From an uncultured Candidatus Peribacteria bacterium (GTDB lineage Bacteria > Patescibacteriota > Gracilibacteria > BD1-5 > UBA2023), in the NCBI GenBank assembly GCA_964644075.1, contig CAZXUQ010000007.1:35-64034 (forward strand): a DNA stretch of 64,000 bases. Direction: 5' to 3'. Positions 15,507 through 63,078 of this stretch are shown piece after piece (positions within the stretch are counted from its first letter, which is position 1; each line of letters starts with the position of its first letter). The notes beneath the pieces are model-generated. The model searched no databases, was not told where the DNA came from, and saw only the letters and a list, made by a program, of their open reading frames with translations. Position numbers and translations under genes: made by a program.

Positions 15507-15541
15507 AGATTGGACTTTAAAGAGAGAAGTTACCTAAAAAG

Positions 15542-26575: not shown

Positions 26576-26806
26576 ATGGTTGTTCCTCCTCTCATTTCTT
26601 CGCGAAAAGAAAAAGAAGATTTTCTTAAGTTTATCGTAGCATCCCTTACTATATCTCCCTCAGAAAAAGATCTTTACAACATCTGTGTGGAAGTGCTTGA
26701 AGGAAATGATTTTGAAACATTTTTTCAAAAAATAGCCATGCAAGTTCAATCACACTGAGAAACTCAAAAAACTTCTATCGAACCACTCACATCAAATTTT
26801 ATCTAA
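26576..26806 (+). CDS. Small hypothetical protein (76 aa)
   Basis: ORF 26576-26758 continues through one TGA to TAA at 26804-26806. First gene of a tightly packed plus-strand gene string. Confidence 0.4.
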
Positions 26807-26809
26807 CCT

Positions 26810-28171
26810 ATGCAATTTCGTGCCGTCTGTTCGAAATGAAATCAGAAACTCACCCTTTCTCTCTCTGCTTCTAGTATCGATGAAGCGCGTTCTTTGCTCC
26901 ATGGACAGGGATATTCTATCATGGAAATCCAGGAAGCATGAAGTGATATTCCAACACAAGAGAGTAGTAGTGATAATTTTTTTTACTTTGATGCCATCAT
27001 TAACGGACAGGTAAAATCATGAAAAATCCAATCTGTAGATGTGTTTAAGGCATATACGAAACTCGTCGACGACCTCGGGTATAATATCCTCTACATCTAC
27101 ACAACCGAGGGGATGAATGAAACACAAAAAAAAGTCATCACTGCAAAAGTAAAAGATGGCTATGTGATGTATAAGCAGAGTATGGGTATAGATATTTCTG
27201 AGAAAAGAATTCAAAGCGAAAAAGAAGTAGCGATGGCAGAGATTTCTCCTATGGTTTTAAGAGAACTAGAAAGTTATAATAGTATTATTGATTCTACCGT
27301 AGAAAAGATCCAAAATCTTTTTCTCAAATATCACAAAACCATCACCCCAGAGAAAAAAAGTGAGCTCGAAGGGATACAGGCAACCCTTGTTCAAACAAAA
27401 TGAACTTCCAATCTCGGAAGAATGAAGAATGTCGTAGAAAATGCTCTTACTGTGGTCGGAAAAGTAGAAGCAGATCTTATAAAATGAGGTGTCGATACAG
27501 AAAAACAAAAACTCCTCGAAGAAACAAACTCTCTCCTCAAAAAGATCTGATCCTCAGAACGTATCGAAACCAACGAAACAAAAGCGGTCGATATCGGAAA
27601 GAGTATCTCAAACTTTTTTGACTCCTTCCAAAAAAAAGATGTCTCAAAATCTGAGCAAAAAAAGAAGGTTGATACCAACTCATTCATCTTTTATAAAAAC
27701 CTTCGTGAACTCGATATCTATAAAAAAAATCTGAACAAAGTGGTTATCGATATCATAAAAGCTTTGTTTTCTTTGCAATTCACACAAGTAAAACGTCTCA
27801 GGCTCAAGAAAAAACTCCTCGAACAAGATATTCAAATCATCGACAACCGAATACACAACAGAAATATTTCCTATACAAAAATCGTAAAAGGAACACAGTA
27901 CTACACGGATATTCTGCTTAAGACATTTCAATCTATCGGAGATATATTTCTCTACTGACTTCTCATGTACACTATGCTGTATATGGTTGTCTCTTCTCTG
28001 CGCGCACTTTTTCCTCAGATCCAGTTTTCTATCGAGACACGCTTCTTCTTTTTTATAGCGATTTTTTCCTGTGTTGCCTTTCTTTTTTCGTTTTTTCGGT
28101 CCATTCTCTCGATCCTTGTCGGACTTGGTGCGTTTCTTTTTCTTTTTGTATTTCTCTCGACCAACTTCTAA
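26810..28171 (+). CDS. Hypothetical membrane-anchored protein (453 aa): two N-terminal GspF/PilC-N-like beta-alpha units, a coiled coil and C-terminal TM helices
   Basis: MQFRAVCSKG(TGA)NQKLTLSLSASSIDEARSLLHGQGYSIMEI and FYFDAIINGQVKSG(TGA)KIQSVDVFKAYTKLVDDLGYNILYI repeat the same pattern. K/E-rich middle. Three hydrophobic helices at the C-terminus. Confidence 0.5.
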
Positions 28172-40800: not shown

Positions 40801-41701
40801 TGTTTCCAGAGACTTCTCGAAGTTCCACGCCTGTCGAGTATGATGCGAGATTAGAGAGGTAACTGGTTCCTATATTTTCGAGATCGATATTTTCGAGACG
40901 TATAGGATCGATACCAGCAGAAACACCAAATCTTCCTACCTCCTGACCTATACCGTTTGAGTATATTTTATCGTTTGATGGAGGAGCGACCGTCGCATTT
41001 CTGAGGTTGGCAGGACTGACCACATCTACTCGTCGAGTTGCACCAGAGCTATTTCCCGCATTATCCACCTTCATATAGTCTATATAGTATACTCATACTG
41101 TGTTTGTATCCACGCTTCCACTGACGGCGAATGATCCTGGAGTTCCATATGTTCCTGTGAAAGTATCCCCAGATCCATCCACATTATCTGTCCATGACGC
41201 ACCGGGTTCCATGTAGGTTCCACTCAGTGCGACGGATATATTGCTACCAGAAAGGGTGACAACAGGGGGAGTTGTGTCGGGTGGAGGGAGTGTCGTGATC
41301 GTAAATGTAGCGTTGGATGCTGGATTAGCAATCTCACCACTTCCATTGTACGCTCCTGTGAGCGACACTGTAGCTACTCCATCGACGGAACCACTTCCGT
41401 CATCCATATTGACCGTGTAGTCATAGGTAAATATCGTACCACTTCCGAGGTCTGTCATAGGAGCATCAAATACATCCATCCATCCTGGCTGATCGATAGT
41501 GATGAGTGGAGTTCCTACCACGGTATCTGTATAGGTAGCCGTGATCGTGAGTGTTCCTGTGCCCGTAGGATTACTCGAATATCAGAGTGCTACATCTGGA
41601 CTTGTAGCGTGAGCGATATTGAGAAAAGGGGAACAGAGTGATGTCATAAACGTGATGAGCGTCACGAGACTCGTGCTCCTTCGGAGAGAAAAGGTATACA
41701 T
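34811..41701 (-). CDS. Giant surface protein (2296 aa): signal peptide, S-layer-like module, about 14 Ig-like (DUF5011/HYR-type) repeats, Gly-rich linker and two C-terminal SLH repeats
   Basis: Ten listed minus-strand fragments all share one frame. The three unlisted gaps were checked triplet by triplet and contain only TGA. N-terminus [32 protein letters not shown]. Repeat unit DTTPPVxTLSGSxTVNVEYGxxYxDxGASWTDxxDGSG...GSVNTGxLGTYTLxYxYTDxxGNxxSxxRTVxVxD. C-terminus [44 protein letters not shown] (SLH). Confidence 0.85.
35695..35917. repeat. 223-nt intragenic repeat, about 98% identical to 39061-39283
   Basis: Hand alignment shows 4 mismatches. Encodes ...[72 protein letters not shown]. Confidence 0.85.
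39061..39283. repeat. 223-nt intragenic repeat, partner of 35695-35917
   Basis: See partner. A further 90-nt identical pair lies at 37919-38008 and 39869-39958. Confidence 0.85.
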
Positions 41702-41823
41702 ATGGATATGTGTATGGATATAAATACCCATAGAGACTACTCCATACAAAAAAATATAGCAATCTTCTTACCTTGTTTTCTGAGGAAAATGAATTGACAA
41801 AAATGTATTATAAATTCTATATA

Positions 41824-46965: not shown

Positions 46966-47201
46966 GTTTTGATCCGACTCTTTGACACTTTGTCTCTTTT
47001 TCCCTCCGTCCTCGGAGGGATTTTTCAAGGGCGATACTCTTGTCATGAGATAAGTATATCTTCTAAAATACTTTCGATCACAGAAATCCAGAGAAAAACT
47101 CTTTCGTGCAGTATTTCGCATTTCTGTAAAGTCGAAATACCCCTCTCTATTTGGAAGTGGGGTTGTTTTCTGGTACTATCAGAGGAGTTATCACTTTTTT
47201 C

Positions 47202-50201
47202 ATGTTTACGAGACTCATCGCATCACTCCTCATCCTCTTCGCATCACTCGACACCTATGCCATCCAGACACGTGTCGCGACCGCGAAGGAGCAGGAGAAA
47301 GGGGTATTTTCTGTCATCTGGGATACTATCCTCTACATCGCAGAAAACATCGTCACGATCACTCTTTTTATCCTCATTGCATGGATGTTTCTCCGCGTCA
47401 TGCGCCTCGCCTATGAGGTTCTCATGGCCAATCGTCTCGTCTATCTCAAGGTCACACTTCCACGTGCCGACTCCAAGCTCGACAAGGAACGTGAGACAAA
47501 AAAAGATTTCAAAGAAAAGGTCGGTATCATGTCGGTATTTTATAAATCGGTTCACAACCTCACACAGGCAAGTGCTTTCGATACGCTCATGAATTTTATT
47601 TTTCGCCATGCGAAGATTTCTCTCGAGCTCATGTACCATGATGGGCAGGTGCATTTTTATGCTGTCGGATACAAGGAACACCTCTCCCTCGTCGTCCAGC
47701 AGATCACCTCGAACTATCCAGACGCTGAGGTCAGAGTCATCGCAAAAAAAGACTTCCCAGAGATCAAGCCACTCGGTTTTACCCTCCAGGCAGCATCCAT
47801 CTCCAAGGAAAATGACGATATCTATCCGATCAAGACGTATAAATATTTCGAAGATGACCCACTTTCGACTTTTACCAATAATTTTTGATCACTCAAAAAA
47901 ACCGACGTCGCATCGATCCAGCTCGTCGTGAAACCACTCGGTCACTCGTGGAACCGCAAGGCAAAAAAAGCTGCCTGACTCGTGGCGAAATGAGAATACA
48001 AAAAAGGGATAAAATCAGGACTGATCGCCATGATATTTAAATGAATTACTGCGCCGATCTCATGGCTCCTCTACCGATTTATCAAAAACGAAGAAACCTC
48101 TACCAATGCTCCAGGTGCGAGCGGGGGAGACTCGTACAAGATATTTAACCAAGCAGAAACTGAGGCACAAAAGATGGTCGGTGAGTCTGCGGGTCAGCCA
48201 GGATTTGCTGCATCTATGCGTATCCTCGTCTCCTCAGATACAGGAGCATCAGCTCGTAGTGCTCTCCAGAACCTCGTCGCTGCTACCTCGATATTTACCG
48301 ACGAGTACAACAACCGTCTCGGAAACCCACAGATGGTCGAGGATCCACTCAGGTTTATCTTCACGCCACTCCGGTATTTCGCGTATCGATTTCGCTTGGT
48401 GTGAGTATTTCAGTGAGTGAGCAATTTCTCCTGTGATGAACTCTCGACGCTCTATCACTTCCCCGATATCAACTATAATAAATCTCCGATCATCTCGTGG
48501 CTCGAGTATAAGATGCTCGCTCCTCCAGCAAATCTCAAGTTCCCGAAAGAACCACTGATCATGAAGGACTACAAGCGTGACAAAGACGGTCATATCTATA
48601 CTGAGGATGGCTCGCTCCTCCAGGTCGATAAAAATAAAAATCTCCTGCGAAATGCCGACAAAGACCTCATCGCTCTCGATGGGACTGTCATCCCAGTTGC
48701 CAAAGAGTGAGAAGCGATCTGACGCCCTCTCGAAAGTGGAAAAACACCAGTTCAGATCGATGAACAGAGAAAACTCCAGGGATTTTCTCTCTACAAAGAT
48801 GGGGTCCTCATGGGATGGAACGAATACCGAAATGTGAAAACTCCCGTGTACTTCTCTAAAAAAGATCGAGGACGTCATCACTATATCATCGGTAAATCTG
48901 GATGAGGAAAGTCAGTATTCATCGGATACCTCGCGCGTCAGGATCTCTGGGCAGGTGAGGGACTCGGTGTCATCGACCCGCATGGTGATCTCGTGGAGGA
49001 TATCGTCGCATTCACACCAAAAGAACGTGCGAAAGACATGATCATATTTGACCCAGCAGATTACGAGCGTCCTATGGGGCTCAATATGCTCGACCTCATC
49101 TCGACGGATCCAAACCTCCGCACGATAGAAAAAGACCGAGCCGCGCTCGACGCGACATCGATATTTATCAAGATGTATGGAGATGAAATATTTGGACCTC
49201 GTATCCAACACTACTTCCGCAATGGATGTCTCACGCTCATGGATGACGATGAAGATGGTGGAACTCTTATCGATGTACCACGACTCTTTGTGGATGAAGG
49301 ATTTATGAAATATAAAGTTTCAAAGGTAAAGAATGTCATGGTAAAAGCATTTTGGGAACATGAATATGCACAGACGGGTGATCGAGAAAAACAGGAAATG
49401 ATCCCATTTTTCTCAGCAAAATTTGGACCATTTATCACCAACGCGACCATGCGAAATATCATCGGTCAGACAAAATCAGCGTTTAACCTGCGTCAAGTGA
49501 TGGACGAACAAAAAGTCCTCATGGTAAACCTCTCAAAAGGAAAAATCGGTGACCTCAATGCCCAACTCCTCGGTCTCATCATGGTCTCAAAGATCAATAT
49601 GGCTGCGATGTCGCGCGCTGATATGCCAGAGGACCAGAGAAAAGACTTTTTCCTCTATGTCGATGAGTTTCAAAACTTCGCAACCGATACCTTCGGTGAG
49701 ATCCTCTCCGAGGCTCGTAAATATCGACTTGCTCTCATCATGGCGCATCAGTTTATCGCACAGATCGGCGGGTCCTGAGATAAGCAAGGAAAATGAGGAA
49801 AGCCATCGATCAAGGATGCTGTCTTTGGAAACGCCGGTACGATCATGTCGTTCAAAGTCGGTGCTGAAGATGCAGAGTACCTCGAAAAAGAGTACGCCCC
49901 AATGCTCTCACAGCAGGACATCATCGGGATCGCGAACTTTACAACCTACTGTAAACTCAATATCGATAACGCGACCACTCGACCATTTGACCTCAAGACA
50001 ATCTGGGATAACACGTATAAAAACGCAGAAGTATCGAAAATCATCAAAGAATACTCTCGAAAAATGTATGGTCGTAAAAAAGAATACGTCGATATGGAGA
50101 TCGAGGCTCGTATGTGAGTCCTCAAAGACGATCCTATCGAAGAAAATAATGGACAATCAACCTCAACAGAAATAACGCCTTCTACAGAACCACCATCATA
50201 G
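47202..50201 (+). CDS. VirD4/TraD-type coupling-protein-like ATPase, paralog 3 (about 999 aa, with extra insertions)
   Basis: Six same-frame fragments joined by TGA. Signal/TM N-terminus. Motifs IIGKSG(TGA)GGKSV, DPHGDL, GLNMLD, FLYVDEFQNF, SEARKYRLAL, GNAGTIMSFKVG. Collinear with paralog 2, for example GDEIFGPRIQHYFRNGCLTL. Confidence 0.8.
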
Positions 50202-50358
50202 TTTTTCTTTTGTCATCCTGGAGGGATCCCTTTCAAAACGATAGAAAAGAGTGTTACTAACCAAAATCTCTTAAGCAAATGAAAAAGCTATTCCTCTGCT
50301 CCGTTCCACTTCGCGACGGAATGACAAAATTACAATAGTTTGAATCTTTACTTCTTCC

Positions 50359-51570
50359 ATGCTTCATAAGATCCTCCCTGTCATCATCGCTCTCCTCGTC
50401 GTCCTCGATAGTTATATTATCGCAGGATTTTGAGGAAGTGGACCGTTTGTTTCTATGATACAGAGTTGGACACCGTTTGTTTTTGGATCGATCGTCGTCG
50501 CGCAGATCCCACTGCTCTACTTCGTCGTGTATAAGGCGTACATCTGACCAGTCCAGCACCTCAATCAAAGTATCGCCAAGTTTATGACTGGTATCGATGA
50601 GGAGCCCGATCTCGAGCAAAATAGCTGGAGCAAGGGGATGAACTATATCATCGGATTTTTCGTAAAGAGTCTCCAGATTTTGAAGGTGTTCAAACAGGAG
50701 CTCCGAGATGGACGCAAGCTCCGATCTGAGGTCGAGATCGCGAGTGAAATCCAGAAACATGTCATGGCAGATGAATCGACCGTCATCCCATCGCTTGAGA
50801 TCGCCCTCGCGAGTGCTCCTGCGAGCGAAGTCGGAGGAGACTCACTCGATATCATCCCAGGAAAAAATGGAAACTACTACATCTATATCGGTGATGTGAC
50901 GGGACATGGCGTCCCGAGCGGGTTCGTCATGATGATGGTGAACGCACTGGTATCAGCATTCGTCTCGGGAGAAGAAAGTAGTGCTCGAGTGCTCTCCGAG
51001 ACCAACCGCATCCTCAAGCCTCGTATCAAGCAAAATATGATGATGACTTGTGTGATGCTCAGATGGAACGAGACGACAAAATCTCTCTACTATACCTGAG
51101 GTGGTCACGAATATCTCCTCGTCTATAAAGCAAAAGAAAATAAAGTCTATAAAATAAAATCCTGATGAGTGGCTATCGGAATGGTCCGTGATGCGTCCAA
51201 GGCACTCATCGAACAGCAGATCCTCTTCGAAAAAGATGATGTCATCATCCTCTATACTGATGGTATTACCGAGGCTCGTTACCGCAGTGAGCAAAATTGA
51301 CTTCTTTTCGGAATCGATAGAATAGTCGAGTCCATCATGAAGGTCCAGACGAAATCCTCAGAGAATATCTTCCGTCAGATCACTATCGATCTCTCCTCAT
51401 TTATGGGCTACAAACACAAACAGTATGATGATATCACACTTTTCGTAGCACGAAATGTCGGATCCTGAGGTATCACGCTCGGTAAGATCCCACAAATGAT
51501 CAATCCGACCAATATCACAGAATGGAACTGGTGAGTACAACAGAAAACCGATGAACCGATCATTCAATAA
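50359..51570 (+). CDS. Membrane-anchored PP2C/SpoIIE-type serine/threonine phosphatase
   Basis: Two N-terminal TM helices and a linker, then the PPM motifs EIQKHVMA, EVGGDSLDI, IGDVTGHGVPSGFVMMM, LYTDGITEA, DDITLFV. Confidence 0.75.
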
Positions 51571-51584
51571 TATTTCTTTTCCCT

Positions 51585-53558
51585 ATGGCGGTACCCTCTC
51601 TCGCAGATCTCGTAAAAATAAACTACACTGGCGATGTCGAATGACTCGAATCAGGAGTAGTGAATTTCGTCGGCTCAGATGGTATCTCTCAGGGTGCCTC
51701 TCTTGCCAACCCTGCTGATATCACACCACTTCCTCCTCCTTCGCCAGTTTCGCCAACTTCGACACCTTCGCCAAAAATCCCACTCGATCTCGATGATCCT
51801 GACCGCAAGCTCACCAAAGAAGAAGCTCTCGAACTCAAAGAAGCAGAAAAAGAATATAAAGAAGCTCTCGCCTACGTCAAAGACATGATCGCTCCTGCGA
51901 TGATGCGCATTGACGCGACCAAACTCCAGATCGGAGATACCTATGTACGTACGATCTTTACCTATGCCTATCCTGATGTTCTCGAGTGAAATTGGCTCTC
52001 ACCGCTCATCAACTGGGATGTGAAGTGTGATGTGTCGATGTTTATCTATCCAGTAGACTCTGCTCGAGTCATGCGCTACCTCCGTAAGCGTCTCACCCAG
52101 CTACGGTCTCAGTACTCGATCAACCGTGAGAAATGACTCATCTCTGATCCGCACCTCGATGCGCAGATGCAAGATGTCGAAGAACTCCAGGTATCACTCA
52201 CGCGTGGTCAGGAGAAATATTTCCACTTCTCACTCTATATCACGACGTATGCAGAGAGTGAAGAGGAGATGAAGCGACTCTCCAATACCCTCGATGTCAT
52301 GCTCGCAGGACGAAACATCCTCACAAAGCAGGCATTTCTGCGTGCTGAGCAAGGATTTGTCGCGACGGGTCCATTTGCTCGAGACGAGGTCAATGTATTT
52401 CGAAATATTTCGACGAAGGGGCTCTCGACGACATTTCCATTTTCCTCGAATTCACTCTCTCAGGATGATGGGATATTCTACGGGATCAATACGCACAATA
52501 ACTCTCTCATCATCTTCGATCGGTTCAAGACAGAAAATGCAAATATGTGTGTCTTCGCGAAGTCAGGATGAGGAAAGTCGTTTGCTGTAAAACTCGAAAT
52601 CCTGCGCGCTCTCATGCTCGGAACGGATGTGATCGTCCTCGATCCAGAAAATGAGTACCGCGCCCTCGTCGATACAGTCGGTGGAACCTACCTCAATATC
52701 AATCTCAACTCAGATGAACGTATCAATCCGTTCGACCTCCCACGATCACTCAAAGATACCGACACACATCCTGGAGATCTGCTACGAGGTGCTGTGGTGA
52801 ATATGATCGGTCTCCTTCACCTCATGCTCGGTGAGATCACGCCAGGTGAAGAGGCGATCCTCGAACGCGCCCTCATCACGACCTACTCGCTCAAAGGGAT
52901 CACGATGGAAGATGACTCGATCGAAAACAAAGAAATCCCACTTATGAAAGATTTCGTCTCCGTCCTCGAGACGATGGATGGTGCGAAGGGCCTCGTCGAG
53001 CGCCTTGATAAATATGTAAATGGAGTGTTTGCCTGAGTGTTCTCTCAGTCGACCAATGTCGATCTCAAGGAAGGCCTCGTCGTCTTCTCAGTACGTGATC
53101 TCGATGAGATCCTCCGACCGATCGCTATGTACATCCTCCTCAACTATGTATGGAACGTCGCTCGTTCGAGTGAAAAAAAGCGAATGCTTGTCGTGGATGA
53201 AGCGTGGAATATTATGCAGTATGAGGACTCAGCAAAATTCCTCTTCGGACTCGTGAAACGTGCTCGTAAGTATGGACTCGGTGTCACGACGATCACACAG
53301 GATGTCGAGGATTTCATGCAGAACCAATATGGAAAAGCTATCGTGACGAACTCATCGATCCAACTGCTCCTCAAACAATCACCAGCCTCTATCGATATCC
53401 TGCAGGATATATTTAAGCTTACCGAACAAGAAAAATATATCCTCCTCAATGCCTCTGTCGGTACAGGACTCTTTTTTGCCTGAGGAGAACATGTGGGTAT
53501 CCAGATCCTCGCATCGTATTTCGAAGAGAAGATCATCACGACCAAGCCAGCAGTATAG
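51585..53558 (+). CDS. virB4: VirB4/TraC/CagE-type type IV secretion ATPase
   Basis: Four same-frame fragments joined by TGA. Walker A VFAKSGG(TGA)GKSFAVK, VVLDPENEY, Walker B MLVVDEAWNIM, RKYGLGVTTITQDVEDF, LLLKQSP. Proline-rich N-terminal linker. Confidence 0.85.
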
Positions 53559-53680: not shown

Positions 53681-54343
53681 ATGAAATCTCTCGTCTCCCT
53701 CCTTGCCCTCGTCTCCCTCACTACCCTCACCCTCAGTGCCTCCCTCGTCTCTGCTTCTCAGATCGGTACCGGTACCGTTGTCGGAAGTGGTGCCCTCACA
53801 GCTCCAATTAACTGGAACGATACATTCGTCTCTTCCTCTGCCTCTGGTAGTATCAATGGTATCGTCGTCACAGGTCGTATCCTCCCAACACTCAATATGA
53901 CGATTTCTGGATCTGGTACGATCGCTCTCGGTAACCTCTCCAGTGCAGCAGCTTCTACTGGTTCAGTCAGTATCGAAATCGGTACAAATGCTATCAATGG
54001 AGCCTCAGTAACAGCACGTTCTACGAACGCTGGTATGACCAATACCTCTTCTGGTGCTATCGTTATCAACAGCCTTTCTGCAGATGGATTTGCAGATAGC
54101 TATAAATTCGTATCATCAGCAGCAGCCACAGACTCTACTGCTCCTGGATTCTCTCAGACAGCAGCACTCAATACAGAAGTCAACAACAACACTACCAACC
54201 ATGCAGTCTATAGCTGTACTCGTCCTCAGCCACTCACTGGTGTCGATGACATCACTTTCTCTGTCGTCGCACAACCAAATGCACAGACTCCAGCAGGGGA
54301 TTACCGAGATGTTGTCGTTATTACGGTAAGTGGGAACTTCTAA
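53681..54343 (+). CDS. Small secreted Ser/Thr/Ala-rich beta-type protein (possible fibre or pilin-like subunit)
   Basis: Signal peptide MKSLVSLLALVSLTTLTLSASLVSA. C-terminal AGDYRDVVVITVSGNF resembles the terminal strand of fimbrial/SCPU-type subunits. No TGA and no sorting signal. Confidence 0.55.
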   Translation: MKSLVSLLALVSLTTLTLSASLVSASQIGTGTVVGSGALTAPINWNDTFVSSSASGSINGIVVTGRILPTLNMTISGSGTIALGNLSSAAASTGSVSIEIGTNAINGASVTARSTNAGMTNTSSGAIVINSLSADGFADSYKFVSSAAATDSTAPGFSQTAALNTEVNNNTTNHAVYSCTRPQPLTGVDDITFSVVAQPNAQTPAGDYRDVVVITVSGNF

Positions 54344-54438: not shown

Positions 54439-57400
54439 ATGTCTTCTCTTACGCAAAAATCTCTCTCTGGACTTCTCGCCTTTGTCCTCAGCTTCGAGTC
54501 GATCATCTCGATCGCTCTTATTTCATCTGTCTCACTTGCGAGTGTAGAGACGACATTTGCTACCCCGAGCTCCTACTCGAAAAAAGCCTATCTCCAGGTA
54601 GCACCGAGCACACTATGAGCGAGTCTCGATCCATCGACAGGGAACTGGTATATGGATACTCCGACTTCCTCAGTCTCTTCTGGTCAGACATACCGATATG
54701 TCCTCGATATGTCGAGCGCGAGTGATGATATGCCGAACTATGATGTCGCGGTCAGTGACTATCTCGCACTCGGGCATACTGGTGTGACTTCACCACGCGT
54801 TCCGACAGCATCGGGATGGGCAGTTCTCGGTACTCCGACTGTCGGCACTCCGACAACGATCGCAAGCTGGACACATGCGAGTGGAGCGGTGCGAAATGTC
54901 ACAGACTCATGAGTACTTCAGTGGGTCGGTGGGCAAAATAAACAAGCTGGAAACCTGAGCGTCACGACACCACATCAAGCAAATCCCCTTACTCTTACGG
55001 GTATCCAGTCTCTTGCAGGACTTGACTCGAGCACGACCGATGGGTTCACCTCTCAGACACTCATAAACGGAAGTGGTGATGTAGTGATCTTTTCCGTCAG
55101 CCATAATAATAGTATCCTCATCCGAGCCGCTAATATGACGAATGGTGTCTATACATCGACACCTTTTCTTTCCGGAACTGGATATACATCGGAAAATAAT
55201 GGCATCATCCTCCAAGATACGACCAATAGGGACAAAATATATATCCTTAGACATGACAATGTATACACCTGTTATGACATTTCTCGAAACCCTTCTCATG
55301 CAGTTACAACTTGTACTCCAGCGACGTTCACTGTCTCTCCTGTCTCATTCTCTCCTCGCACAAGTAGTGGAGCGTGGCTCCCTTCCTCTACAGCTTTCGC
55401 GATCGTCGCAGACCGACTCTATGCCTGAGTTCTCGGCACTGATGGAGATACCTACTTGACTTGTACGACGACAGCATGATCTCACTGTGGTGAGTGGCGT
55501 GTCGGTACGGGGACAGATTTTGGGACATCGTTTCATAAACACTCGACACAGCTCACGACCGAGAAATTTGCTTTCGCACTTTCGAATGGACTCCAATACT
55601 GTATCCGAGAAGTCGCATCTGGGTCACTCGCTCTCTGTGATGGAACAGCACTTCCACCGACTGGAGCGGATATCACATCTTTCGCGAGAAATATAGGAAC
55701 AGCGGGAGGACTTTTTTACCCGCCTCCAGGAGATCCTGTAAGACTCGGATGGACGGTCTTTCCTCGCGTCGAAAACGGAAGCACGACGGGATACTGTTAT
55801 AGTGACAAGACAGCATCATATATCGGGAATGCTTCTGTCTGTCGAGATCTTTCGGATGCCCTGGTTCCGACCGATAGTCCTGCGGGTCCAAACTTCCACA
55901 ACGTCGTCTGAGTGATCCCATGAAGCTCTCGTGTTCTCATCAACCATAGTTCCACTTCAGGATATTTCGGTCCTCTTCCGACGTGTTATGACTTCTCTAC
56001 TCATAGTACTTGTGGAAATACAGTCAACTGGAGACAAGACGAATATGGAGGATCATTTATCTCACCGACCTGTTATGTCACGATGGATGATGGTGCTGCT
56101 TATGGAAATATCAGCTCGTTTGCTCTCTATCGGTACTCGACTGGAGCAGTAGGAGAGCCACTCATGACGAGACTCGGTACTCCTATCGGGACACTTACGG
56201 GCGAACTCTACCACAATGGTTCTGGGTATTTGCCAACAGGAAATATGGTAACCAACGAATATAGCTACTCTCAGTCTGATGTCGATGCATGTAACGCAGG
56301 ATGAGCTCTCGATATCCCCGATCCAAGTCCGACGACTACTACCGTTACCGTCAAAACCCAAGATCCTCTCGGCGTCAATACCTGTGCTCCTGGTCCTGAG
56401 ACGATAAGTTGGGATATGCTTACCATCAGTGCGTTGCCTCTAGGATATACGAGTGCCACAGGAACCATCCTGGATATGAGTGGAAATATTATCGTCGAAT
56501 ATTCATTTTCTCCACTGACAGGACTCACCCAAAATATCACTGCCCAAGTACCCTATGCGAGTTACCCACAGTTTCAGGTGCGACTCGATATCCTCGGAAC
56601 AGGCAGTAGCCTCTCAGGAACGATCATCGCTCTTACTCACACATCGAGTAAGTGAGGTCCTCAGATTTGTTATGATGCGACGGTTACTCAGGCGATGTGT
56701 GACACTCCTCACCCTGTCTCATCTGGTCCACTTGACCCTCTCGATCCGTGGATCGGATCTGGTACCTGGAGTCCAAATATGTTTCGCAGTGTGAGCTCCT
56801 TCAGCGGACTCACAACAAGCACACCGATCATCCTCACTTCTGATGGGACCACTCCAGTATGAGTATCGTGTGCTCCTGTAGAAGTCGGCGGCAATCTCTG
56901 GTACGATGCCGACCACGATGGTATCCAGGATGCGAGTGAGATATTTTTCTCTGGTGCTGCTATCCGCCTCCTCGATCCTCTCGGAAATACGGTCGCGAGT
57001 GGTACAACTGACGCGAGCGGTGGGTATCTGTTTTCCAATATTTCTGGGACCAATACTCTATCAAATATCTACAACCTCTTCCTCCCATCGAGTGCGACGG
57101 GATATAGTATCGTGATCGATAACAGCGCCTGGGCATCTACAGGAGTACTCTTTGGATATACTCCGACCTCATCTCTTCAGTGAGGTGACCGGACTCTCGA
57201 CTCCGACCTCACCACGCTTTCTGGGGGAGTGATGGGTACACCTCTCACGCTTCCCGCCGCTGGGTCATCGGATCTCACGTATGATTTCTGAGTATTTCCC
57301 GATATCGAAATCGGAGATCGTGTCTGGAACGACATCAATGCAAATGGGATCCAGGATGGTGGGGAAAATAGTATCATGAACGCGACGGTAGAACTCCTCG

Positions 57401-60400
57401 ATGCGAGCGGTGCTGTGATCGCCTCAGCTCTGACAGATGGATTTGGAAACTATACTTTCACATCCAATGCCATGACAGGATCGACACCATCCTTCGTCAG
57501 TAACCTCCCTCTCGAGCTCGCAGGATCGTACTTTGTGTGACTTGCGGCTTCGAATTTCACTCCATGAAATACCCTCGATACCGCTATGGGCTGGACTGTC
57601 AGTCCAGGATCGAGATGAGGGAACTCTACTCTCGACTCAGATGCTGATATCACTCTCCCGACCAATTCTCCATCTCTTGGCTATACGACTATGGTGCTTC
57701 ATCCGTTTGGTTTTGCGACGGGAAGTGGACGATATCTCCTTCATGATATCGATTTCGGAGCATATCTCGGTTTCGACATTTCTCTTAAAAAATATATCGA
57801 TACTGTTGCTCCATCCTCAGATGCAGATACGAGCGGAAGTGGTGTGTATGAGGGCCTTGGAAGTGCCCTGACCTATATCATCCGCGTATCCAATCTCGGA
57901 CCTGGTCAGACCCACGGAGAAACCGTCGTCACTGATACGCTCCCGAGTGGAGTCACGATGACGAGTCTCCCGAGTGGATCAGGATGGTCATGTAACGCCA
58001 GTGGTGCTGACATCACGTGTCGATCGACAGATATAGTCCTCGGAAGTAGTGCCTATAGTGACATCTCTATCCCCGTCACCGTCACTGCGAAAGATGCTAT
58101 CCTCACCAATACTGCCCTCGCAACCAATCTCGAAGAACTCCCAGGACAAACATCGAATAACACTGATCCTGCTGTATCTCTCGTTGTACCAGTTATCATC
58201 GGAGACCGCGTCTGGAACGACACTAACCGAAATGGTATACAGGACAGTGGAGAAACTGGTATCCCTCTCGTCCACGTCTCTCTCCTCGATGCGAGTGGTG
58301 CTGTCGTCGCGACTGCGGTCACGAACGTCAGTGGTGTCTACACCTTTTCGAGTGAGTCTGGATCGACGAGTCCAGATGGTTCCTATGTGCGAAATGCACC
58401 AATCATCCCATGAGCAAACTATACGATCTCCCTCGATGCTTCGAACTTCACGAGCGGGACACTTTCTGGCAGCTACCGACCGAGTCCTACAGGCGCGGGT
58501 ACTCCGACGACCGACTCTGATGGTCAGCCGACCGCGACCCCAGGTACCACTGGTGTAAATTCACTATCGTTTTCTGCGCCTCCTGTGACAGCGCTCGCGA
58601 GTGCACGTACGGATACGAGCCGAGATTTCGGATTGTACCAGGATTTCGATATGCGCGTGACGAAGTATATGAGCATCTTCTCATGAGCCCTCCAGGACGC
58701 GAACTCTCCAGCGACGAGTTCAGGAGATGTAAATAGTCTCTGATATGGAGATACATTTCTCTATACCGTCCGTGTTACCAACCTCGGACCTGGCCCACTC
58801 CTCGGCACGACGTACGTCTCTGATACGCTCCCGAATGGAGTCACACTCGATCCGAGCTTCGTTGCTCCAAGTGGATGGAGCTGTAGTGTCAGCGGACAAA
58901 ATATCCTCTGTAACACTGCGACCGGAGCTCTCTCTGGTGCGAGCCTCACAGATATCGTCTTCCCAGTCCATGTCACGCTCACCGATGCTGTCGGTGCACA
59001 GAGTCTCACCAACACCGTCTCGGTATCCAATAGTGCTGAAATCTCGATCGCTCACAATCCTGCAAACACTGGTAACCCGAGCAATCCTGGAAACCCAAGT
59101 GATCCAAATGCTCCGAACCCGAGCACGCCCGAGTGACAAAATAACACTGATACCGCAGTCGTAAGTATCTATCCTGTGACTGTCTGAGACCGTGTCTGGA
59201 ACGACGCAAATCGAAATGGTATACAGGACAGTGGAGAAAGTGGGATTGCCTCTGTCGTGATCGATCTTTCTCTCTCTGGTACGACGATCGCGAGCGCGAC
59301 GACCGATGCTTCATGAGCATTTCTCTTCTCGAGTGCGACGGGAGTGAGCACGACATCTCGCGTCTATGGTATGCTCTTTGCGCCGAGTGCGACGGGGTAT
59401 ACATTCTCCCTTCGTCCATCGAACTTCCTCTCTGGGTGAGTCCTCTACGGTCTCATGCCGACGACGGCTCTCGCATGATCAGATCGTACTCTCGACTCCA
59501 ATCTCACTACCCTCTCGACGATCGCTCTCACTCTCCCTGCGCACGGAGGGGTCGATATGTCGTATGATGCAGGACTCATGACTCCACCTCCAGTACCGTC
59601 GACACCGACTTCATGACCAGGTGGCGGACCATGACCAACGTATGTTCCACCGACGACCTCGACACCTCCATCGACGTCCCAATTCCAGCAACCATTTGTT
59701 CCGATCGGTGTACAGACAATATTCCAACAGACTCCTCATACTCCAGAGAAATCTCCTCGTATCGAAGCGTTCCCAAGCCTCGAACACTATCCATACGGAC
59801 CAGCAGGAGATCAGTCTCTCCTTCCGAACGACCGAGTGAATGGAACTCTTGCGACAGTAAAAAATGTCACGGTAAAGCTTCTCGATAATGGTGGTATCAA
59901 AGGTCTCACGCTCGATCCAAAAACAGGAAAAATCCTCTTTCCTCCGAAAACGGCTCCAGGAAAGTATACTGTCTCATATGCGATCACCGATGTCTCCGAT
60001 CCAAGCAATACAGCCGAGTCGGTCGCTGTCATCATCATCGATCGTGCGAAGCCGACATTTGTCCTTCCGAAAAAACTTCTCGACACGGGGACTCCGATCG
60101 CCAAAAAATGAATTCGCATCATAGCGAACTTCCTCGTCGCGACGAAAGCGATGTTCCCGTCGGCATATGGATTTGCTCATGTCGGAGACGCTCCTCGTGA
60201 TATCGCTTTCTGGAAAAAACACCTCTCCGAAACACTCGGAGGCAAGTACCAAGAAAAAGATAATAATGCCAAAACGTACATCGTCGTGCCATCGATCGGT
60301 ATCGTCACCCCTGTCTATGATATCCTCGATAGCAGTGAGAAGTCGAGCCAAAAAGATTTCGATACTCTCGTCTCATGAGGCGAAATTAAGGTCAATCCAT

Positions 60401-60774
60401 ATCTCCATGACGGTGTCGTCCACTACCCACGATCAGCCAGTGCTGGCGAAGTCGGGAATATGGTCGTCGCAGGACACTCATCCTACTGGAACCGTGATGC
60501 AGGACGCTATAAGACCGTGTTCGGGAACCTGATGGAGCTCGATGCTGGTGAGGAAGTCTGGGTCTACACACAGAGCTCCACAGAGAAATCAGGCTACGCC
60601 CTCCATCGCTATCGTGTCACTGCCTCATACAACACTGATCCGACCAATGTCAGTGTTCTCCTCCCCGATGGAGACAAAAAGATCATCACCCTCTTTACCT
60701 GTACTCCAGTTGGTGGACTCTCGGGTAGATGGATCGTGAGAGGGGAGCTCGTAGAAGAAAATAAGGAAAGTTAG
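54439..60774 (+). CDS. Giant surface adhesin (SdrD-B/Cna-B-like and DUF11 repeats) continuing in frame into a sortase domain (2111 codons, no TAA/TAG)
   Basis: All listed fragments between 54652 and 60774 share frame 1. My manual translation finds only TGA between them. Signal/TM N-terminus, Cys-rich N-terminal region, four GDRVWND.N.NGIQD..E.G repeats, two DUF11-like units ([12 protein letters not shown]..., [12 protein letters not shown]...), Pro-rich stalk, LLDTG at 60076-60090, TGA at 60109-60111, then [18 protein letters not shown] and sortase motifs [22 protein letters not shown]. Confidence 0.75.
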
Positions 60775-60806
60775 ATATCTGAAAAATTTGCATTTTCTCA
60801 CTATTT

Positions 60807-60846: not shown

Positions 60847-63078
60847 ATGAAACCCTCTCTCCTTTCCCGCCGTGAGAAACTCCTTCTCGCTCTTCTCACA
60901 TCTACTCTCATCTTCTCAGCTTCCTTCTCCTATGGAGCAGTAAGTCAAACCAAAGTGGATGCTATCATGAAGATGATCAATGAGGGAGCTATGAAATTCT
61001 CAGATATACCTGTCACAGGACAAACCAAATCTGAGAGAACGGCATACTACGAGAAAGTAGATGCAGGACTCTGAGATGCTGTAGAGATGCTTGCAGTGGT
61101 GAGAAACAATATCCGATCTCTCATGTGACTCTCTCCAGCATATACAGCAGATGCTATCATAGGAGATGTCCTCGGTGGAGTTATTGGTGGAGTGAGTGGG
61201 GGGAACAATTGAGGAAATACTGGAAATGGAAACAACGGAAGTGCAACGAGTCCCAACACAAACCCTTCTACAGGCCCTTGGCTCGAGGTAGGAACCATAT
61301 CCTGTCCTACAGGTCTGGATAAACTCCAGACAGCCAATCCATCCACATACAAAAGTGGTGAAAATCCAAACGGGTATCAGTATACATCCACAGCAGGCTC
61401 ATACTACAACGTCAAAGATCACACCAATGCAACAGATACCTCTCTCCCAACATCGTGTATCTGAGGAGAATATTGGGTCAGTCCCACAACAACAGGATGA
61501 CAGTGTAAGCTCTCTACCTGTACTACGATGAAGAACTACTGTCCATCAGGAAAGAAATTCCCTGACTATACAATACTTGACTCATCTGTACCAAACCGAT
61601 TTGATATGCCAATACGTGATTATGCTGACCGAGCAATAACAAATGGAAAGATTGATGTAGGTGCTGCCTTGAAACAACTCGATAAGGTGACAACCGTGAA
61701 ATTCACGATTGCTCCATGGCAGAAAACGAAGGACTCTATTGGTCAATTGGGAATATATGAAACTCCATGAGCAAATCCAGCATTTCGTCTCATCACGATT
61801 TCACGTAATCCGTGCGACTTTAATCCGCGTACCACTCGTGGCTACTCAATAGAAAATTCTTCAAGTCCTAGATTTACTGTAAACGATACACGTGTAGGAA
61901 ACTCACCGTATGACTTTGTTCCACTCAGCACAGGAACATGGTATATAAATATCCTTCCTCTTGACGGATGTGCTGCACCAGGTGCGCCTGCTGGATCTGA
62001 CCAGACATGTATGACCAGACTCAATATATATAATGGTGGGAAAGCCTTTAACGATATAGGGGTACGACCATATACTCCACGGCCACAGGAAGATTTGAAA
62101 GATGGTCTTGTTTCTGGAGACGCCGTGACAGATAATTTTTCTTCTTCCCCATCATCGACCCCTCCTCCTACGACCTTACCACCTGTAACTGCTACCAATA
62201 TGTGTCCTGCTGGGCAGAGTTACCCAGACTCTAAGTTTTGAGACTATCATGACCTCCCGAGTCGGCAGATGTTTAAGAGTACTGATCCTACTCGTACGTA
62301 TACCGTAGAAATGAATATCAAAGATACTACTACTGCAGGGAAACTGGAAGGAGAACTCCCGACACTTACCTATGCCGAAGCCCCTGGAAGTTTGATTACT
62401 GGATGGAATGTCAGTATTTCGAGAAATCCTTGTGACTTTTCATCATCATCACAAACTGTAGTTGCAAATGACGTGATCGGATGGAGGTACTACTCTGTCA
62501 ATGATAAGAGAACAAAACCTGGTATCCTGAACCTTGCACCAGGAAAGTGGTATATCAACTTCAAAGTTGCTCAAAAATGTATCACACCATGAAAACCAGC
62601 AGACTCTCCAAACCAAGATAACTGCGGAATATTCTTCGAACTTCCTGGTTATGGACTTCAGACATACATCAACTATACTCCGACTCTCACCGTACGCGAT
62701 ATCAATAAAAAAATATCTAATACTACCTGTGAACTCACCGTAGCAACCAATATCAGTGGTAACTTTACCAGATATCGTCCGATCTGGAGTGAATACCTTC
62801 CCGAAGTTTCTGGAAACTACTACTATATAGGTGGATCGACTATGGTAAGCAAAGAAGATTACCTCAAACAGCTTTCTCCATGTGGAAGCGGTATCAATGT
62901 AGGAACGACATGAGACTGGATGAATGCAGGAAGATGAGATATCTGTAAAATAGGTACAACCATACTTCGTCCTATTGCTCCAAACAACGACTGTAAAGCT
63001 TTATGTCAGACAATCGGCTGAGGTACTGAAAATGGCGACTGTCGTCCACCAAACGGAAAAGAATTTACAGGTATATAG
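60847..63078 (+). CDS. Secreted Cys-rich hypothetical protein (743 aa) with an internal duplication
   Basis: Signal-like N-terminus. Frame checked line by line. Duplicated module ISRNPCDF...(T/P)G(T/K)WYIN(I/F) at about 61.8 and 62.4 kb. Pro/Ser/Thr linker SSSPSSTPPPTTLPPVTAT. About 30 Cys. Confidence 0.6.

What the first reader, a model, noticed from the sequence alone, without database searches (positions are those of the whole stretch)
60076..60774. Adhesin and sortase are one open reading frame: the sorting-signal-like LLDTG is followed by a sortase domain
The adhesin ends ...[17 protein letters not shown], then TGA (60109-60111), then [15 protein letters not shown] (a typical sortase N-terminal membrane anchor) and a complete sortase catalytic domain ([22 protein letters not shown]). 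Under the standard code this looks like two genes. Under the code used everywhere else in the window there is no TAA/TAG between them, and both parts are in frame 1. The predicted product therefore carries an LxxTG-type motif directly upstream of its own sortase. Three possibilities follow:
- cis self-processing, which would release and anchor the adhesin while leaving the enzyme in the membrane
- an additional internal start at 60151
- context-dependent UGA termination
Basis: partly seen in the sequence, partly recalled or inferred. Interest (0 to 1): 0.85.

Follow-up and report, generated by a model that had tools for sequence, protein, structure and literature searches.

The report
Giant adhesin fused to its sortase
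In this TGA=glycine bacterium (Gracilibacteria group), a 2,111-residue surface adhesin, an LPXTG-type cleavage motif and a complete sortase enzyme are one protein, an arrangement conserved across the lineage that I could not find described and that suggests an adhesin carrying its own single-use anchoring enzyme.

Summary
Window 54439-60774 (+) is one 2,111-codon reading frame: signal peptide, SdrD_B/DUF11 adhesin, [10 protein letters not shown], a 60-residue linker containing TGA 60109-60111, then a complete sortase domain (His2013, Cys2088, Arg2097).

TGA encodes glycine here. Window TGAs align to GGN 13 times and never to Trp in an 87%-identical orthologue.

The fusion does not depend on that codon. 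The homologous position is TGA in six DNA-verified relatives and GGN in six. Nine MAG loci carry complete ORFs of 1,689-2,438 aa, plus one of at least 2,993 aa cut by its contig end, that run adhesin-LP(Q/R/E)TG-sortase with only ordinary sense codons at the junction.

The post-junction segment is not hydrophobic enough, is not conserved, and is disordered in AlphaFold models. The only hydrophobic segment is the N-terminal signal peptide. An internal start and UGA termination are both rejected.

The motif sits 112-136 residues before the catalytic His and tracks the presence of a passenger. The LPXT|G site aligns with the signal-peptidase site of passenger-less homologues.

Best explanation (inferred, about 0.6): the exported protein cleaves its own LPXTG and transfers the adhesin to an amine acceptor, releasing a soluble single-use sortase. 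I found no description of this in the searchable literature. It is a new variant of a known system.

The parts
54439..60774 (+). Single ORF (2,111 aa plus TAG) encoding signal peptide, adhesin passenger, LPXTG-type motif, linker and sortase. It contains 26 in-frame TGA (Gly) codons.
   Evidence: The orthologous full-length ORF is in L001.
54439..54561 (+). N-terminal Sec-type signal peptide (about aa 1-34/41, [34 protein letters not shown]|SVETTFA|TP). It is the only hydrophobic segment of the protein.
   Evidence: Hydropathy scan: a 19-residue Kyte-Doolittle mean of 1.6 or more occurs only in windows starting at aa 8-22 (peak 2.08). The cleavage site is inferred by eye.
54562..60060 (+). Passenger: surface adhesin with four SdrD_B repeats, two DUF11 domains, an unassigned N-terminal region of about 800 aa, and a C-terminal Ig-like domain just before the motif.
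   Evidence: Pfam. There was no NCBIfam hit for the N-terminal 818 aa. The AF2 model of homologue P0001 shows an all-beta domain before the motif.
60061..60090 (+). Extended sorting/cleavage motif [10 protein letters not shown], with LLDTG at 60076-60090. The family consensus is (L/Y)-P-K-x-L-(P/L)-x-T-G. The predicted scissile bond is Thr1883|Gly1884.
   Evidence: The motif is identical in L001 and L004.
60091..60276 (+). Linker and N-terminal extension of the sortase module ([28 protein letters not shown]...). It is not a TM helix. It aligns with the mature N-terminus of the passenger-less homologues.
   Evidence: Maximum 19-residue Kyte-Doolittle mean 1.17. pLDDT is below 50 in homologue models. 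Alignment.
60109..60111 (+). Junction TGA, read as Gly1891. This Gly is conserved in the nearer clades and is encoded by TGA or GGN.
   Evidence: TGA in window, L001, L004, L003, L022 and L024. GGN in L002 (GGT), L008, L016, L017, L018 and L026.
60277..60753 (+). Sortase catalytic domain with His2013 (60475-60477), Cys2088 (60700-60702) and Arg2097 (60727-60729). It contains a second TGA=Gly at 60376-60378.
   Evidence: Pfam PF04203 E 4.7e-21. TIGR01076 scores 39.9 against a cutoff of 39.35. PDB sequence hits are sortases. Foldseek hits for a 66%-identical homologue model have E about 1e-11. His and Cys are invariant and Arg is nearly invariant in the family alignments.
60772..60774 (+). TAG, the first true stop codon in the frame.

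Best explanation
Shown:
- The window encodes one secreted polyprotein. It consists of an N-terminal signal peptide, a roughly 1,830-residue SdrD_B/DUF11 adhesin, the motif [10 protein letters not shown], a flexible non-membrane linker, and a catalytically intact but class-unassigned sortase domain.
- This is one member of a family found in TGA=Gly lineages (Gracilibacteria, Absconditabacteria/SR1 and MAGs labelled Peribacteria).
- In that family, unrelated giant passengers are joined to the same LPXTG-linker-sortase module.

Inferred mechanism:
1. The whole chain is exported through Sec.
2. The C-terminal sortase domain attacks the LPXT|G site that lies about 65 residues before its own first beta-strand. 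The attack is within the same chain or between neighbouring copies.
3. This forms a Thr-Cys thioacyl intermediate and frees the sortase module with a new N-terminus, G-TPIAKKG...
4. The intermediate is resolved by an amine nucleophile, most simply the organism's own peptidoglycan. The adhesin becomes covalently fixed and the soluble sortase module is discarded after a single turnover.

The fusion replaces two classical retention devices: the substrate's C-terminal TM segment with basic tail, and the enzyme's N-terminal TM anchor. Both are absent here.
For: 1. One ORF, independent of recoding. Nine MAG loci (L006, L007, L009, L011-L015, plus the window orthologue L001) have complete ORFs of 1,689-2,438 aa ending in LP(Q/R/E)TG plus sortase. 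L016 has one of at least 2,993 aa cut by its contig end, and L010, L017 and L018 are further contig-truncated copies. Apart from L001, all have only ordinary sense codons across the junction. The homologous Gly is GGT in L002.

2. Fixed geometry. The motif lies 112-136 aa before the catalytic His in every long form. In 29 of 40 long representative clusters it lies 113-135 aa before the His in all but two.

3. The motif tracks the passenger.
- All 14 long genomic forms have it.
- 29 of 40 database clusters with a passenger of 150 aa or more match a strict pattern. Ten of the other 11 have LLKTG, LIKTG, LLQTG or LPKMG-type variants at the same place.
- Only 12 of 80 short forms match.

4. Extended conserved motif over 67 unique sequences: P at -3 in 59, K at -2 in 33, L in 63, P/L in 62, T in 57, and G in 67 (20 of them as TGA).

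5. The LPXT|G site aligns with the signal-peptidase site of passenger-less homologues (SFA|LTPKAQK-G-VV against LLDT|G-TPIAKK-G-IR). Cleavage would therefore release a module equivalent to the free enzyme.

6. Split versions exist. L022 and L026 encode a giant protein ending LPA(Y/I)LP(E/Q)TG plus a short non-TM tail. About 3 kb downstream, on the same strand, lie signal-peptide sortases of the same family.

7. The catalytic His, Cys and Arg are retained in all fused forms.

8. The motif lies in a segment modelled as disordered between two folded domains, so it should be accessible.

9. No hydrophobic segment other than the signal peptide exists, so the sortase domain is exported together with the adhesin.

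10. Several fused paralogues occur per genome: JAHDHC01 has L016-L018, and CALLPL01 has L006 and L011.

11. In 367 kb of related DNA no conventional LPXTG+TM+basic-tail substrate was found.

12. Gracilibacteria have a complete peptidoglycan pathway and no outer membrane (PMC6851277).
Against: - There is no biochemical evidence. Cleavage, the acyl intermediate and the acceptor are all inferred.
- AlphaFold does not dock the motif into the active site. pLDDT is below about 50 for the motif in both models, and no coordinates or PAE were available.
- The window's motif is LLDTG, not canonical LPXTG.
- Free sortases of the same family coexist with fused ones in at least one genome (L019 with L006 and L011). 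TM-anchored sortases also occur in related MAGs (P0007, P0016). Processing by another enzyme therefore cannot be excluded.
- Two passenger-less homologues (P0005, P0065) keep an LPAMG remnant, which self-anchoring does not explain.
- A soluble single-turnover enzyme is costly, and it is unclear how a fully secreted protein would meet a membrane-bound lipid II acceptor.
Confidence: 0.6

Rival explanations
1. The LPXTG site is cut by a different, free sortase. The candidates are an L019-like signal-anchored enzyme or a TM-anchored P0016-like enzyme. The fused C-terminal sortase domain is then either a leaving group standing in for the usual TM tail, or an enzyme delivered to the surface to act on other substrates.
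For: Free family members and classical TM-anchored sortases exist in related genomes. The split operons in L022 and L026 show that the motif can be handled in trans.
Against: Each adhesin paralogue carries its own intact catalytic triad at a fixed distance from its motif. With no TM tail, nothing would hold the substrate near a membrane-bound enzyme. The motif correlates with passenger presence within the fused family itself.
Confidence: 0.15
2. The LPXTG-like segment is an uncleaved pseudo-substrate or tether that occupies or regulates the active site, comparable to the lid of class C sortases. The protein remains a full-length adhesin-enzyme that acts on other proteins.
For: The passenger-less homologues P0005 and P0065 retain LPAMG next to the signal peptide. 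The motif and the following TP(I/L) residues are conserved as part of the module.
Against: Most passenger-less homologues lack the motif altogether (68 of 80; L021-L026), so it is not needed by the enzyme. The models give no ordered, docked conformation. Thr and Gly at the scissile positions are the most conserved residues.
Confidence: 0.1
3. The locus makes two separate proteins: an adhesin terminated at UGA 60109, and a sortase started internally, for example at ATG 60151.
For: Under the standard code the locus looks like two genes. Met1905 is conserved in the four closest homologues.
Against: - TGA is Gly throughout the window, including inside the sortase domain itself (60376).
- The homologous junction codon is GGN in six relatives and another sense codon in others.
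- A product started at 60151 would have no signal peptide or anchor, so the enzyme would stay in the cytoplasm.
- In L003 and L002 the only signal peptide lies upstream of the junction.
- The sequence before 60151 is GC-rich coding sequence, unlike the AT-rich leaders of real starts in the window.
Confidence: 0.02
4. A sequencing or assembly artefact joined two genes.
For: None was found. One relative (L020) does carry a frameshift about 45 codons before its LPQTG.
Against: The same junction occurs in independent assemblies L001 and L004. The same architecture occurs in more than 12 MAG loci and in about 40 representative protein clusters.
Confidence: 0.01

Closest known systems
Classical Gram-positive sortase / LPXTG surface-protein pairs (e.g. 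S. aureus SrtA with Sdr-family MSCRAMM adhesins)
   Same: It has the sortase fold and the His-Cys-Arg triad. It has an LPXTG-type pentapeptide at the end of an SdrD_B/Ig-like adhesin exported by a signal peptide. The organism is a monoderm with peptidoglycan.
   Different: Enzyme and substrate are one polypeptide. The substrate has no hydrophobic segment or basic tail after the motif. The enzyme has no TM anchor. The sortase scores far below the curated cutoffs of classes C-F. The motif is extended to (L/Y)PKxL(P/L)xTG.
Engineered self-cleaving sortase fusion tags (sortase-LPXTG-target; e.g. the BISOP method, PMC2901362)
   Same: The enzyme and its LPXTG site are in one chain, so the protein can process itself. 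This shows the chemistry is feasible within a fusion.
   Different: Those fusions are artificial and have the opposite order, with sortase N-terminal to the motif. Here the passenger is N-terminal, so the passenger, not the enzyme, becomes the acyl donor and is carried to the acceptor. This family is natural and conserved.
Split adhesin/sortase operons of Absconditabacterales and SR1
   Same: They share the sortase family, the LPA(Y/I)LP(E/Q)TG-type motif, the signal-peptide rather than TM-anchored enzymes, and the absence of a TM tail on the substrate.
   Different: There the adhesin ends 14-26 residues after the motif and the two sortase paralogues are separate genes about 3 kb downstream. 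In the window the genes are fused.
Autoprocessing C-terminal domains that transfer an N-terminal passenger (Hedgehog/Hint-type domains; self-cleaving autotransporter passengers). Analogy from general knowledge.
   Same: The logic is the same: a C-terminal catalytic domain forms a (thio)ester at the passenger's C-terminus and hands the passenger to a nucleophile, once per molecule.
   Different: The fold and chemistry are unrelated, and there is no homology. For the window protein the activity itself is still inferred.

Membership tests
Sortase superfamily (Pfam PF04203 / NCBIfam TIGR01076) | Sequence match to the sortase domain model above the curated threshold | tested here: met
   PF04203 scores 75.3 bits against a cutoff of 26.6, E 4.7e-21, covering aa 1949-2105 and the full model. 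TIGR01076 scores 39.9 against a cutoff of 39.35, which is marginal.
Sortase superfamily (Pfam PF04203 / NCBIfam TIGR01076) | Catalytic His, Cys (TLxTC) and Arg | tested here: met
   His2013 in AGHSSY, Cys2088 in TLFTCTP and Arg2097 in GRW. H and C are invariant and R is 90% or more conserved in family alignments.
Sortase superfamily (Pfam PF04203 / NCBIfam TIGR01076) | Eight-stranded sortase beta-barrel fold | tested here: met
   The test used the 66%-identical homologue P0001, because the tool would not accept the recoded window protein. pLDDT is above 90 over the domain. Foldseek top hits are sortases of classes C, D, A and E, with E 6e-12 to 1e-9.
Sortase superfamily (Pfam PF04203 / NCBIfam TIGR01076) | Membrane anchoring of the enzyme (N-terminal TM or signal anchor next to the catalytic domain, or a C-terminal TM as in class C) | tested here: not met
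   There is no segment with a 19-residue Kyte-Doolittle mean of 1.6 or more outside aa 8-40. The linker is hydrophilic in homologues and there is no C-terminal TM.
Sortase superfamily (Pfam PF04203 / NCBIfam TIGR01076) | Transpeptidase activity on an LPXTG-type peptide | not testable with these tools
   This needs an in vitro cleavage or ligation assay.
Curated sortase classes C, D, E, F (NCBIfam NF033745-NF033748) | Score above the class-specific cutoff | tested here: not met
   Class E 53.5, class C 45.3, class D 31.8 and class F 23.8 bits, against cutoffs of 160-166. The best PDB sequence hit is C. perfringens SrtD (4d70) at only E 3.8e-7.
Tripartite cell-wall sorting signal (LPXTG, hydrophobic stretch, basic C-terminal tail) | LPXTG-type pentapeptide | tested here: met
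   The window, L001 and L004 have LLDTG. Homologues have canonical LP(Q/K/R/E/D)TG at the aligned position.
Tripartite cell-wall sorting signal (LPXTG, hydrophobic stretch, basic C-terminal tail) | Membrane-spanning hydrophobic segment after the motif | tested here: not met
   The maximum 19-residue Kyte-Doolittle mean is 1.17 in the window and at most 1.0 in homologues. The segment is not conserved and has pLDDT below 50.
Tripartite cell-wall sorting signal (LPXTG, hydrophobic stretch, basic C-terminal tail) | Short positively charged tail ending the protein | tested here: not met
   The motif is followed by 227 residues that include a folded enzyme domain. No LPXTG-anchor model was reported by NCBIfam for the C-terminal 241 aa.
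Genetic code 25 (SR1/Gracilibacteria, UGA=Gly) | In-frame TGA at conserved Gly positions; genes intact only if TGA is a sense codon | tested here: met
   window TGA aligns to GGN 13 times and never to Trp. The closest genome records are Gracilibacteria or Peribacteria MAGs. No tRNA-Gly(UCA) gene or RF2 status could be checked inside the window.
SdrD-like / DUF11 Ig-fold surface adhesins | Repeated SdrD_B and DUF11 domains behind a signal peptide | tested here: met
   SdrD_B E 1.2e-66 (4 stretches) and DUF11 E 1.7e-13 (2 stretches). The binding function was not tested.
Class C sortase-type lid / pseudo-substrate | An ordered segment occupying the active-site groove | tested here: inconclusive
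   The motif region is low-confidence in both AF2 models, and no coordinates or PAE were available to inspect contacts.

The most novel reading that the evidence does not exclude
The fused module may be a portable, single-shot covalent ligation device. Once secreted, the adhesin-thioacyl-sortase intermediate could be resolved by something other than the producer's own lipid II.

- One possible acceptor is an amine on the surface of the host or prey bacterium, such as its peptidoglycan cross-bridges or DAP/Lys side chains. That would weld the epibiont to its host covalently.
- Another is the conserved Lys of the (L/Y)PK element that immediately precedes the motif in a neighbouring molecule. That would build a covalently linked adhesin polymer without any membrane-bound machinery.

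The position of the gene next to VirB4- and VirD4-like type IV secretion genes would fit a role in cell-to-cell contact.
Probability: 0.12. Interest if true: 0.95.

Novelty: new variant of a known kind. Interest (0 to 1): 0.72.

Why it matters
**For sortase biology.** Sortase systems are textbook two-component systems: a membrane-anchored enzyme acts on many substrates that are held at the membrane by a TM tail. This family breaks all three rules. Enzyme and substrate are one chain, neither has a membrane anchor, and the ratio is one enzyme per substrate. It is conserved and multi-copy in a whole candidate-phylum-level lineage of ultra-small, probably epibiotic bacteria.

**For testing.** If the self-processing model holds, it is a natural stoichiometric self-anchoring or self-ligating surface protein. 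The question then becomes directly testable with a roughly 330-residue recoded construct.

**For understanding these organisms.** It gives a handle on how these uncultivated cells fix giant adhesins to themselves or to their hosts.

**For protein engineering.** It offers a natural passenger-LPXTG-sortase cassette for self-ligating proteins.

**For annotation.** Standard-code or code-4 gene calling splits or mistranslates these genes. Many database entries are fragments or carry Trp at Gly positions, including at the motif Gly.

Tried and rejected
- **AlphaFold on the window protein.** I modelled homologues P0001 and P0004 instead. Neither model places the motif with any confidence, and no coordinates were available, so cis-docking could not be assessed.
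- **Looking for a TM anchor.** I searched after the junction and at the C-terminus, as in class C sortases. None was found in the window or in any homologue. The roughly 75-aa C-terminal tails of many homologues are hydrophilic helices, and the window clade lacks them.
- **Looking for conventional substrates.** I searched the window and 26 related loci for LPXTG plus TM plus basic tail. None was found. The only two pattern matches were degenerate pentapeptides (IAFSS, VPMSN) with no LPXTG character.
- **Conserved accessory genes.** I clustered the flanking ORFs of the fused genes. Apart from antisense shadow ORFs, only one downstream gene of about 490 aa is shared, within one subclade. Nothing is shared with the window.
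- **Synteny with type IV secretion genes.** Only L011 has a VirD4 homologue nearby, so any association is weak.
- **tRNA-Gly(UCA).** It is not present in the window.
- **Class assignment.** No curated sortase class fits.
- **Literature.** Eight searches were run: sortase with Gracilibacteria, Absconditabacteria or Patescibacteria; C-terminal sortase domain; fused/same polypeptide; self-cleavage; giant genes. They returned only engineered fusions and general mentions of sortases in CPR bacteria.
- **P0003.** Its contig DNA could not be fetched. Its junction codon is inferred to be GGN because that protein shows W at other conserved Gly positions.
Full report
**1. What is in the sequence**

Frame 1 of the + strand is open from 54421 to the TAG at 60772-60774. 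The first ATG is at 54439, giving 2,111 codons with 26 in-frame TGAs.
- LLDTG at 60076-60090
- TGA at 60109-60111
- ATG at 60151
- [16 protein letters not shown] and GRWIVRG

With TGA read as Gly, Pfam finds four SdrD_B stretches (E 1.2e-66), two DUF11 stretches and a full-length Sortase domain at aa 1949-2105 (E 4.7e-21) in one polypeptide.

**2. Genetic code**

- With only TAA/TAG as stops, the window resolves into 44 long ORFs covering 97% of it. With TGA as a stop it breaks into 125 fragments.
- Internal SdrD_B repeats read [16 protein letters not shown] and V-TGA-DRVWND.
- A codon-level alignment was made to the orthologue in MAG contig CAYSEP010000046 (L001). It is 76% identical over the whole protein and 87% over the sortase part. 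Window TGAs pair there with TGA 9 times, GGN 13 times, other codons 4 times, and never with TGG.
- A second TGA lies inside the sortase domain itself (60376), where homologues have Gly.

The code-25 reading is therefore tested, not assumed.

**3. Is the junction really read through?**

L001 and L004 (66% identity, a different metagenome) have the same [28 protein letters not shown] arrangement, so an assembly artefact is unlikely.

More distant relatives settle the matter.
- In L002 the homologous codon is GGT, in a gene that uses TGA elsewhere.
- Across DNA-verified loci the position is TGA in six (window, L001, L003, L004, L022, L024). It is GGN in six (L002, L008, L016, L017, L018, L026).
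- A scan of 185,579 species genomes with a family profile returned 22 loci, all from Gracilibacteria, Absconditabacterales, SR1 or MAGs labelled Peribacteria.
- Eight of these loci besides L001 (L006, L007, L009, L011-L015) carry complete ORFs of 1,689-2,438 aa that run signal peptide, giant passenger, LP(Q/R/E)TG, linker, sortase. L016 carries one of at least 2,993 aa cut by the contig end, and L010, L017 and L018 are further truncated copies. All have only ordinary sense codons across the junction.

The fusion is real, old and independent of the recoded codon.

In L003 and L002 the only signal peptide lies upstream of the junction. Stopping at the junction would leave the enzyme without an export signal.

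**4.

[15 protein letters not shown] is not a membrane anchor.
- Its best 19-residue Kyte-Doolittle mean is 1.17. The only segment of the whole protein at 1.6 or above is the N-terminal signal peptide, which peaks at 2.08.
- In homologues the equivalent segment is hydrophilic, for example GIAIVKNPSVETNFPTW and KSILERVKMLVNAKLNLEAP. Their maximum is 1.0 or less.
- AlphaFold models of P0001 and P0004 give pLDDT below about 50 for the motif and the residues after it. This low-confidence stretch sits between a confident Ig-like or helical upstream element and a confident sortase domain.
- There is no C-terminal TM either.

A classical single-TM arrangement would in fact place the sortase domain in the cytoplasm. 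The absence of a TM is what makes the fusion topologically workable.

The internal start at 60151 would give an enzyme with no export signal. The Met is absent in the wider family. The upstream sequence is GC-rich coding DNA, unlike the AT-rich leaders before real starts in the window.

**5. Anatomy of the family**

Anchoring all sequences on the first beta-strand (YIVVPS) gives three results.

(a) The LPXTG-type motif sits at a nearly fixed distance: 112-136 aa before the catalytic His.

(b) The motif is extended. Over 67 unique sequences the counts are:

| Position | Residue | Count (of 67) |
|---|---|---|
| -4 | L or Y | 36 L, 17 Y |
| -3 | P | 59 |
| -2 | K | 33 |
| 0 | L | 63 |
| +1 | P or L | 53 P, 9 L |
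| +3 | T | 57 |
| +4 | G | 67 (20 encoded by TGA) |
| +5 | T | 36 |
| +6 | P | 31 |
| +7 | I or L | 44 |

The window's [13 protein letters not shown] fits this pattern, with the less common L at position +1.

(c) In passenger-less homologues the signal-peptidase site (SFA|LTPKAQK-G-VVTIE, LYA|LTPKEEK-G-VITLK) aligns with LPXT|G-TP... of the fused forms. Cleavage at T|G would therefore release a module starting at essentially the same residue as the free enzyme.

**6. Motif and passenger go together**

An exhaustive profile search of 1.84 billion representative proteins found 252 family members at E of 1e-30 or better.
- Among the 147 top sequences read, 40 have 150 aa or more upstream of the module (up to 3,805 aa in total).
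- Of these 40, 29 match a strict [LIMV][PA]x[TS][G/TGA] pattern. All but two of those matches lie 113-135 aa before the His.
- Ten of the other 11 show LLKTG, LIKTG, LLQTG, LPKMG or IPSAG-type variants in the same place.
- Only 12 of 80 short forms match.

In 367 kb of related DNA (948 six-frame ORFs of 120 aa or more), 14 of 20 LPxTG occurrences are this site. No classical LPXTG+TM+basic-tail signal was found.

Passengers are not homologous between the window clade and the others. They are nevertheless adhesin-like: L009 has five DUF11 stretches, DUF7507 and DUF7619. This points to a conserved module attached to exchangeable passengers.

Several fused paralogues occur per genome.

**7. Split relatives**

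In L022 (Absconditabacterales) and L026 (SR1) a giant protein ends ...LPA(Y/I)LP(E/Q)TG plus 14-26 non-hydrophobic residues. It lies about 3 kb upstream, on the same strand, of two tandem signal-peptide sortases of the same family. The same enzyme family thus works with an unfused substrate that also lacks a TM tail. This supports a real enzyme-substrate relation and a fusion or fission history.

**8. Mechanism**

Shown:
- There is one exported polypeptide with an intact catalytic triad.
- An accessible, conserved LPXTG-type site sits at a fixed distance from the triad.
- There are no membrane anchors beyond the signal peptide.

Inferred:
- After Sec export, the sortase domain cleaves LLDT|G in cis or between copies. 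It carries the adhesin as a thioacyl intermediate and passes it to an amine acceptor.
- The sortase module, now starting GTPIAKKG, is released as a soluble, single-use product.
- The organism's own wall is the simplest acceptor. Gracilibacteria have a complete peptidoglycan pathway and no outer membrane (PMC6851277). Other large surface proteins in the window carry SLH wall-binding domains.

I give this model about 0.6. The rivals are processing by a separate sortase (0.15), an uncleaved pseudo-substrate (0.10), two proteins (0.02) and an artefact (0.01).

**9. Comparison with what is known**

- The domain is a sortase by sequence, triad and fold. It falls far below the cutoffs of curated classes C-F: the best score is class E at 53.5 bits against a cutoff of 160.
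- The site has the LPXTG element of a cell-wall sorting signal but fails the other two defining parts, the hydrophobic span and the basic tail.
- The nearest functional parallel is the engineered sortase-LPXTG-target self-cleaving tag (PMC2901362). That tag is artificial and has the opposite domain order.
- A survey of Patescibacteria type IV secretion systems reported that no PrgB-like adhesins were detected (PMC12102498). Here the fused adhesin lies directly downstream of VirD4-like (47130-50201) and VirB4-like (51486-53558) genes. Only one other locus shares that neighbourhood.
- Eight full-text searches found no description of a natural adhesin-LPXTG-sortase fusion. The library is incomplete, so this means not found, not proven absent.

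**10. Verdict**

It is wrong about the anchor and about the alternative start and stop options.

The finding is a new variant of a known kind of system. It appears undescribed, is widespread in code-25 lineages, and can be tested directly with a small recoded construct.

Noticed in passing
window 47130-50201 (+), 50275-51570 (+), 51486-53558 (+): A VirD4/T4SS coupling-protein-like gene, a SpoIIE-family phosphatase and a VirB4/TraG-like ATPase lie directly upstream of the adhesin-sortase gene (Pfam). Only one related locus (L011) also has a VirD4 homologue nearby.
   Followed up: partly
window 53681-54343 (+): A small secreted-looking protein (signal peptide MKSLVSLLALVSLTTLTLSASLVSA, Ser/Thr/Gly/Asn-rich, 220 aa) lies immediately upstream of the adhesin. 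It has no in-frame TGA and no Pfam hit.
   Followed up: partly
window 34811-41767 (-) and 15542-18640 (-): Two more giant surface proteins are present. One is about 2,300 aa of Ig-like repeats with what looks by eye like a C-terminal SLH (S-layer homology) region. The other is about 1,030 aa with apparent N-terminal SLH repeats and no in-frame TGA at all. Neither has an LPXTG motif, which suggests a non-covalent wall-anchoring route alongside the sortase one. The SLH assignment is from reading the sequence and was not run through Pfam.
   Followed up: partly
window 60847-63078 (+): A 743-aa Cys-rich protein with a signal peptide lies directly downstream of the sortase stop. It has no Pfam family and no homologue in the related loci.
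   Followed up: partly
window-wide, e.g. 58564-60804 (-), 15521-18652 (+): Long antisense shadow ORFs of up to about 1,000 codons run opposite real genes, because only TAA/TAG terminate. Naive longest-ORF calling picks the wrong strand in places: 15521-18652 (+) has 33 TGAs, while its antisense partner 15542-18640 (-) has none.
   Followed up: no
L022 1-8831 and L026 1-5115: These are split versions of the system. A giant protein ending LPA(Y/I)LP(E/Q)TG plus a short tail is followed by a polytopic membrane protein and then two tandem signal-peptide sortase paralogues with helical C-terminal tails.
   Followed up: partly
L020 1445-8631: This is a close copy of the L015 fused gene that is broken by a frameshift about 45 codons before LPQTG. 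It could be an assembly error, a pseudogene or something else.
   Followed up: no
family motif, window 60061-60075 (VLPKK): A conserved (L/Y)-P-K element sits three residues before the LPXTG motif (P in 59 of 67, K in 33 of 67). In many members it reads YPK, like the Lys-containing pilin motif used as the nucleophile in sortase-built pili. Whether this Lys is an acceptor is unknown.
   Followed up: partly
P0091 (407 aa), P0115, P0106/P0110/P0112: Other architectures occur among the sortase hits. P0091 combines a signal peptide, a sortase domain and a C-terminal CHAP domain (PF05257, a peptidoglycan amidase/peptidase family), which hints at action at the cell wall. More distant sortases carry SLH or TSP3-repeat domains.
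   Followed up: no
P0005/L003 1654-2424 and P0065: These passenger-less members keep a degenerate LPAMG right after the signal-peptidase site (HA|DIILPAELPAMGTPVELLRQK-G). This may be a remnant of a lost passenger, and the self-anchoring model does not explain it.
   Followed up: partly
window 26001-28000: A local GC dip to 33.6% against a window mean of about 45%.
   Followed up: no
public protein databases (P0001, P0003, P0005, P0066-P0083, many of P0129-P0270): Many database translations of this family carry Trp where the DNA has TGA=Gly, including the invariant Gly of GHS and the Gly of LPXTG (for example LPKTW). Others are truncated fragments. These are code-4 or standard-code calling artefacts that hide the architecture.
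   Followed up: partly
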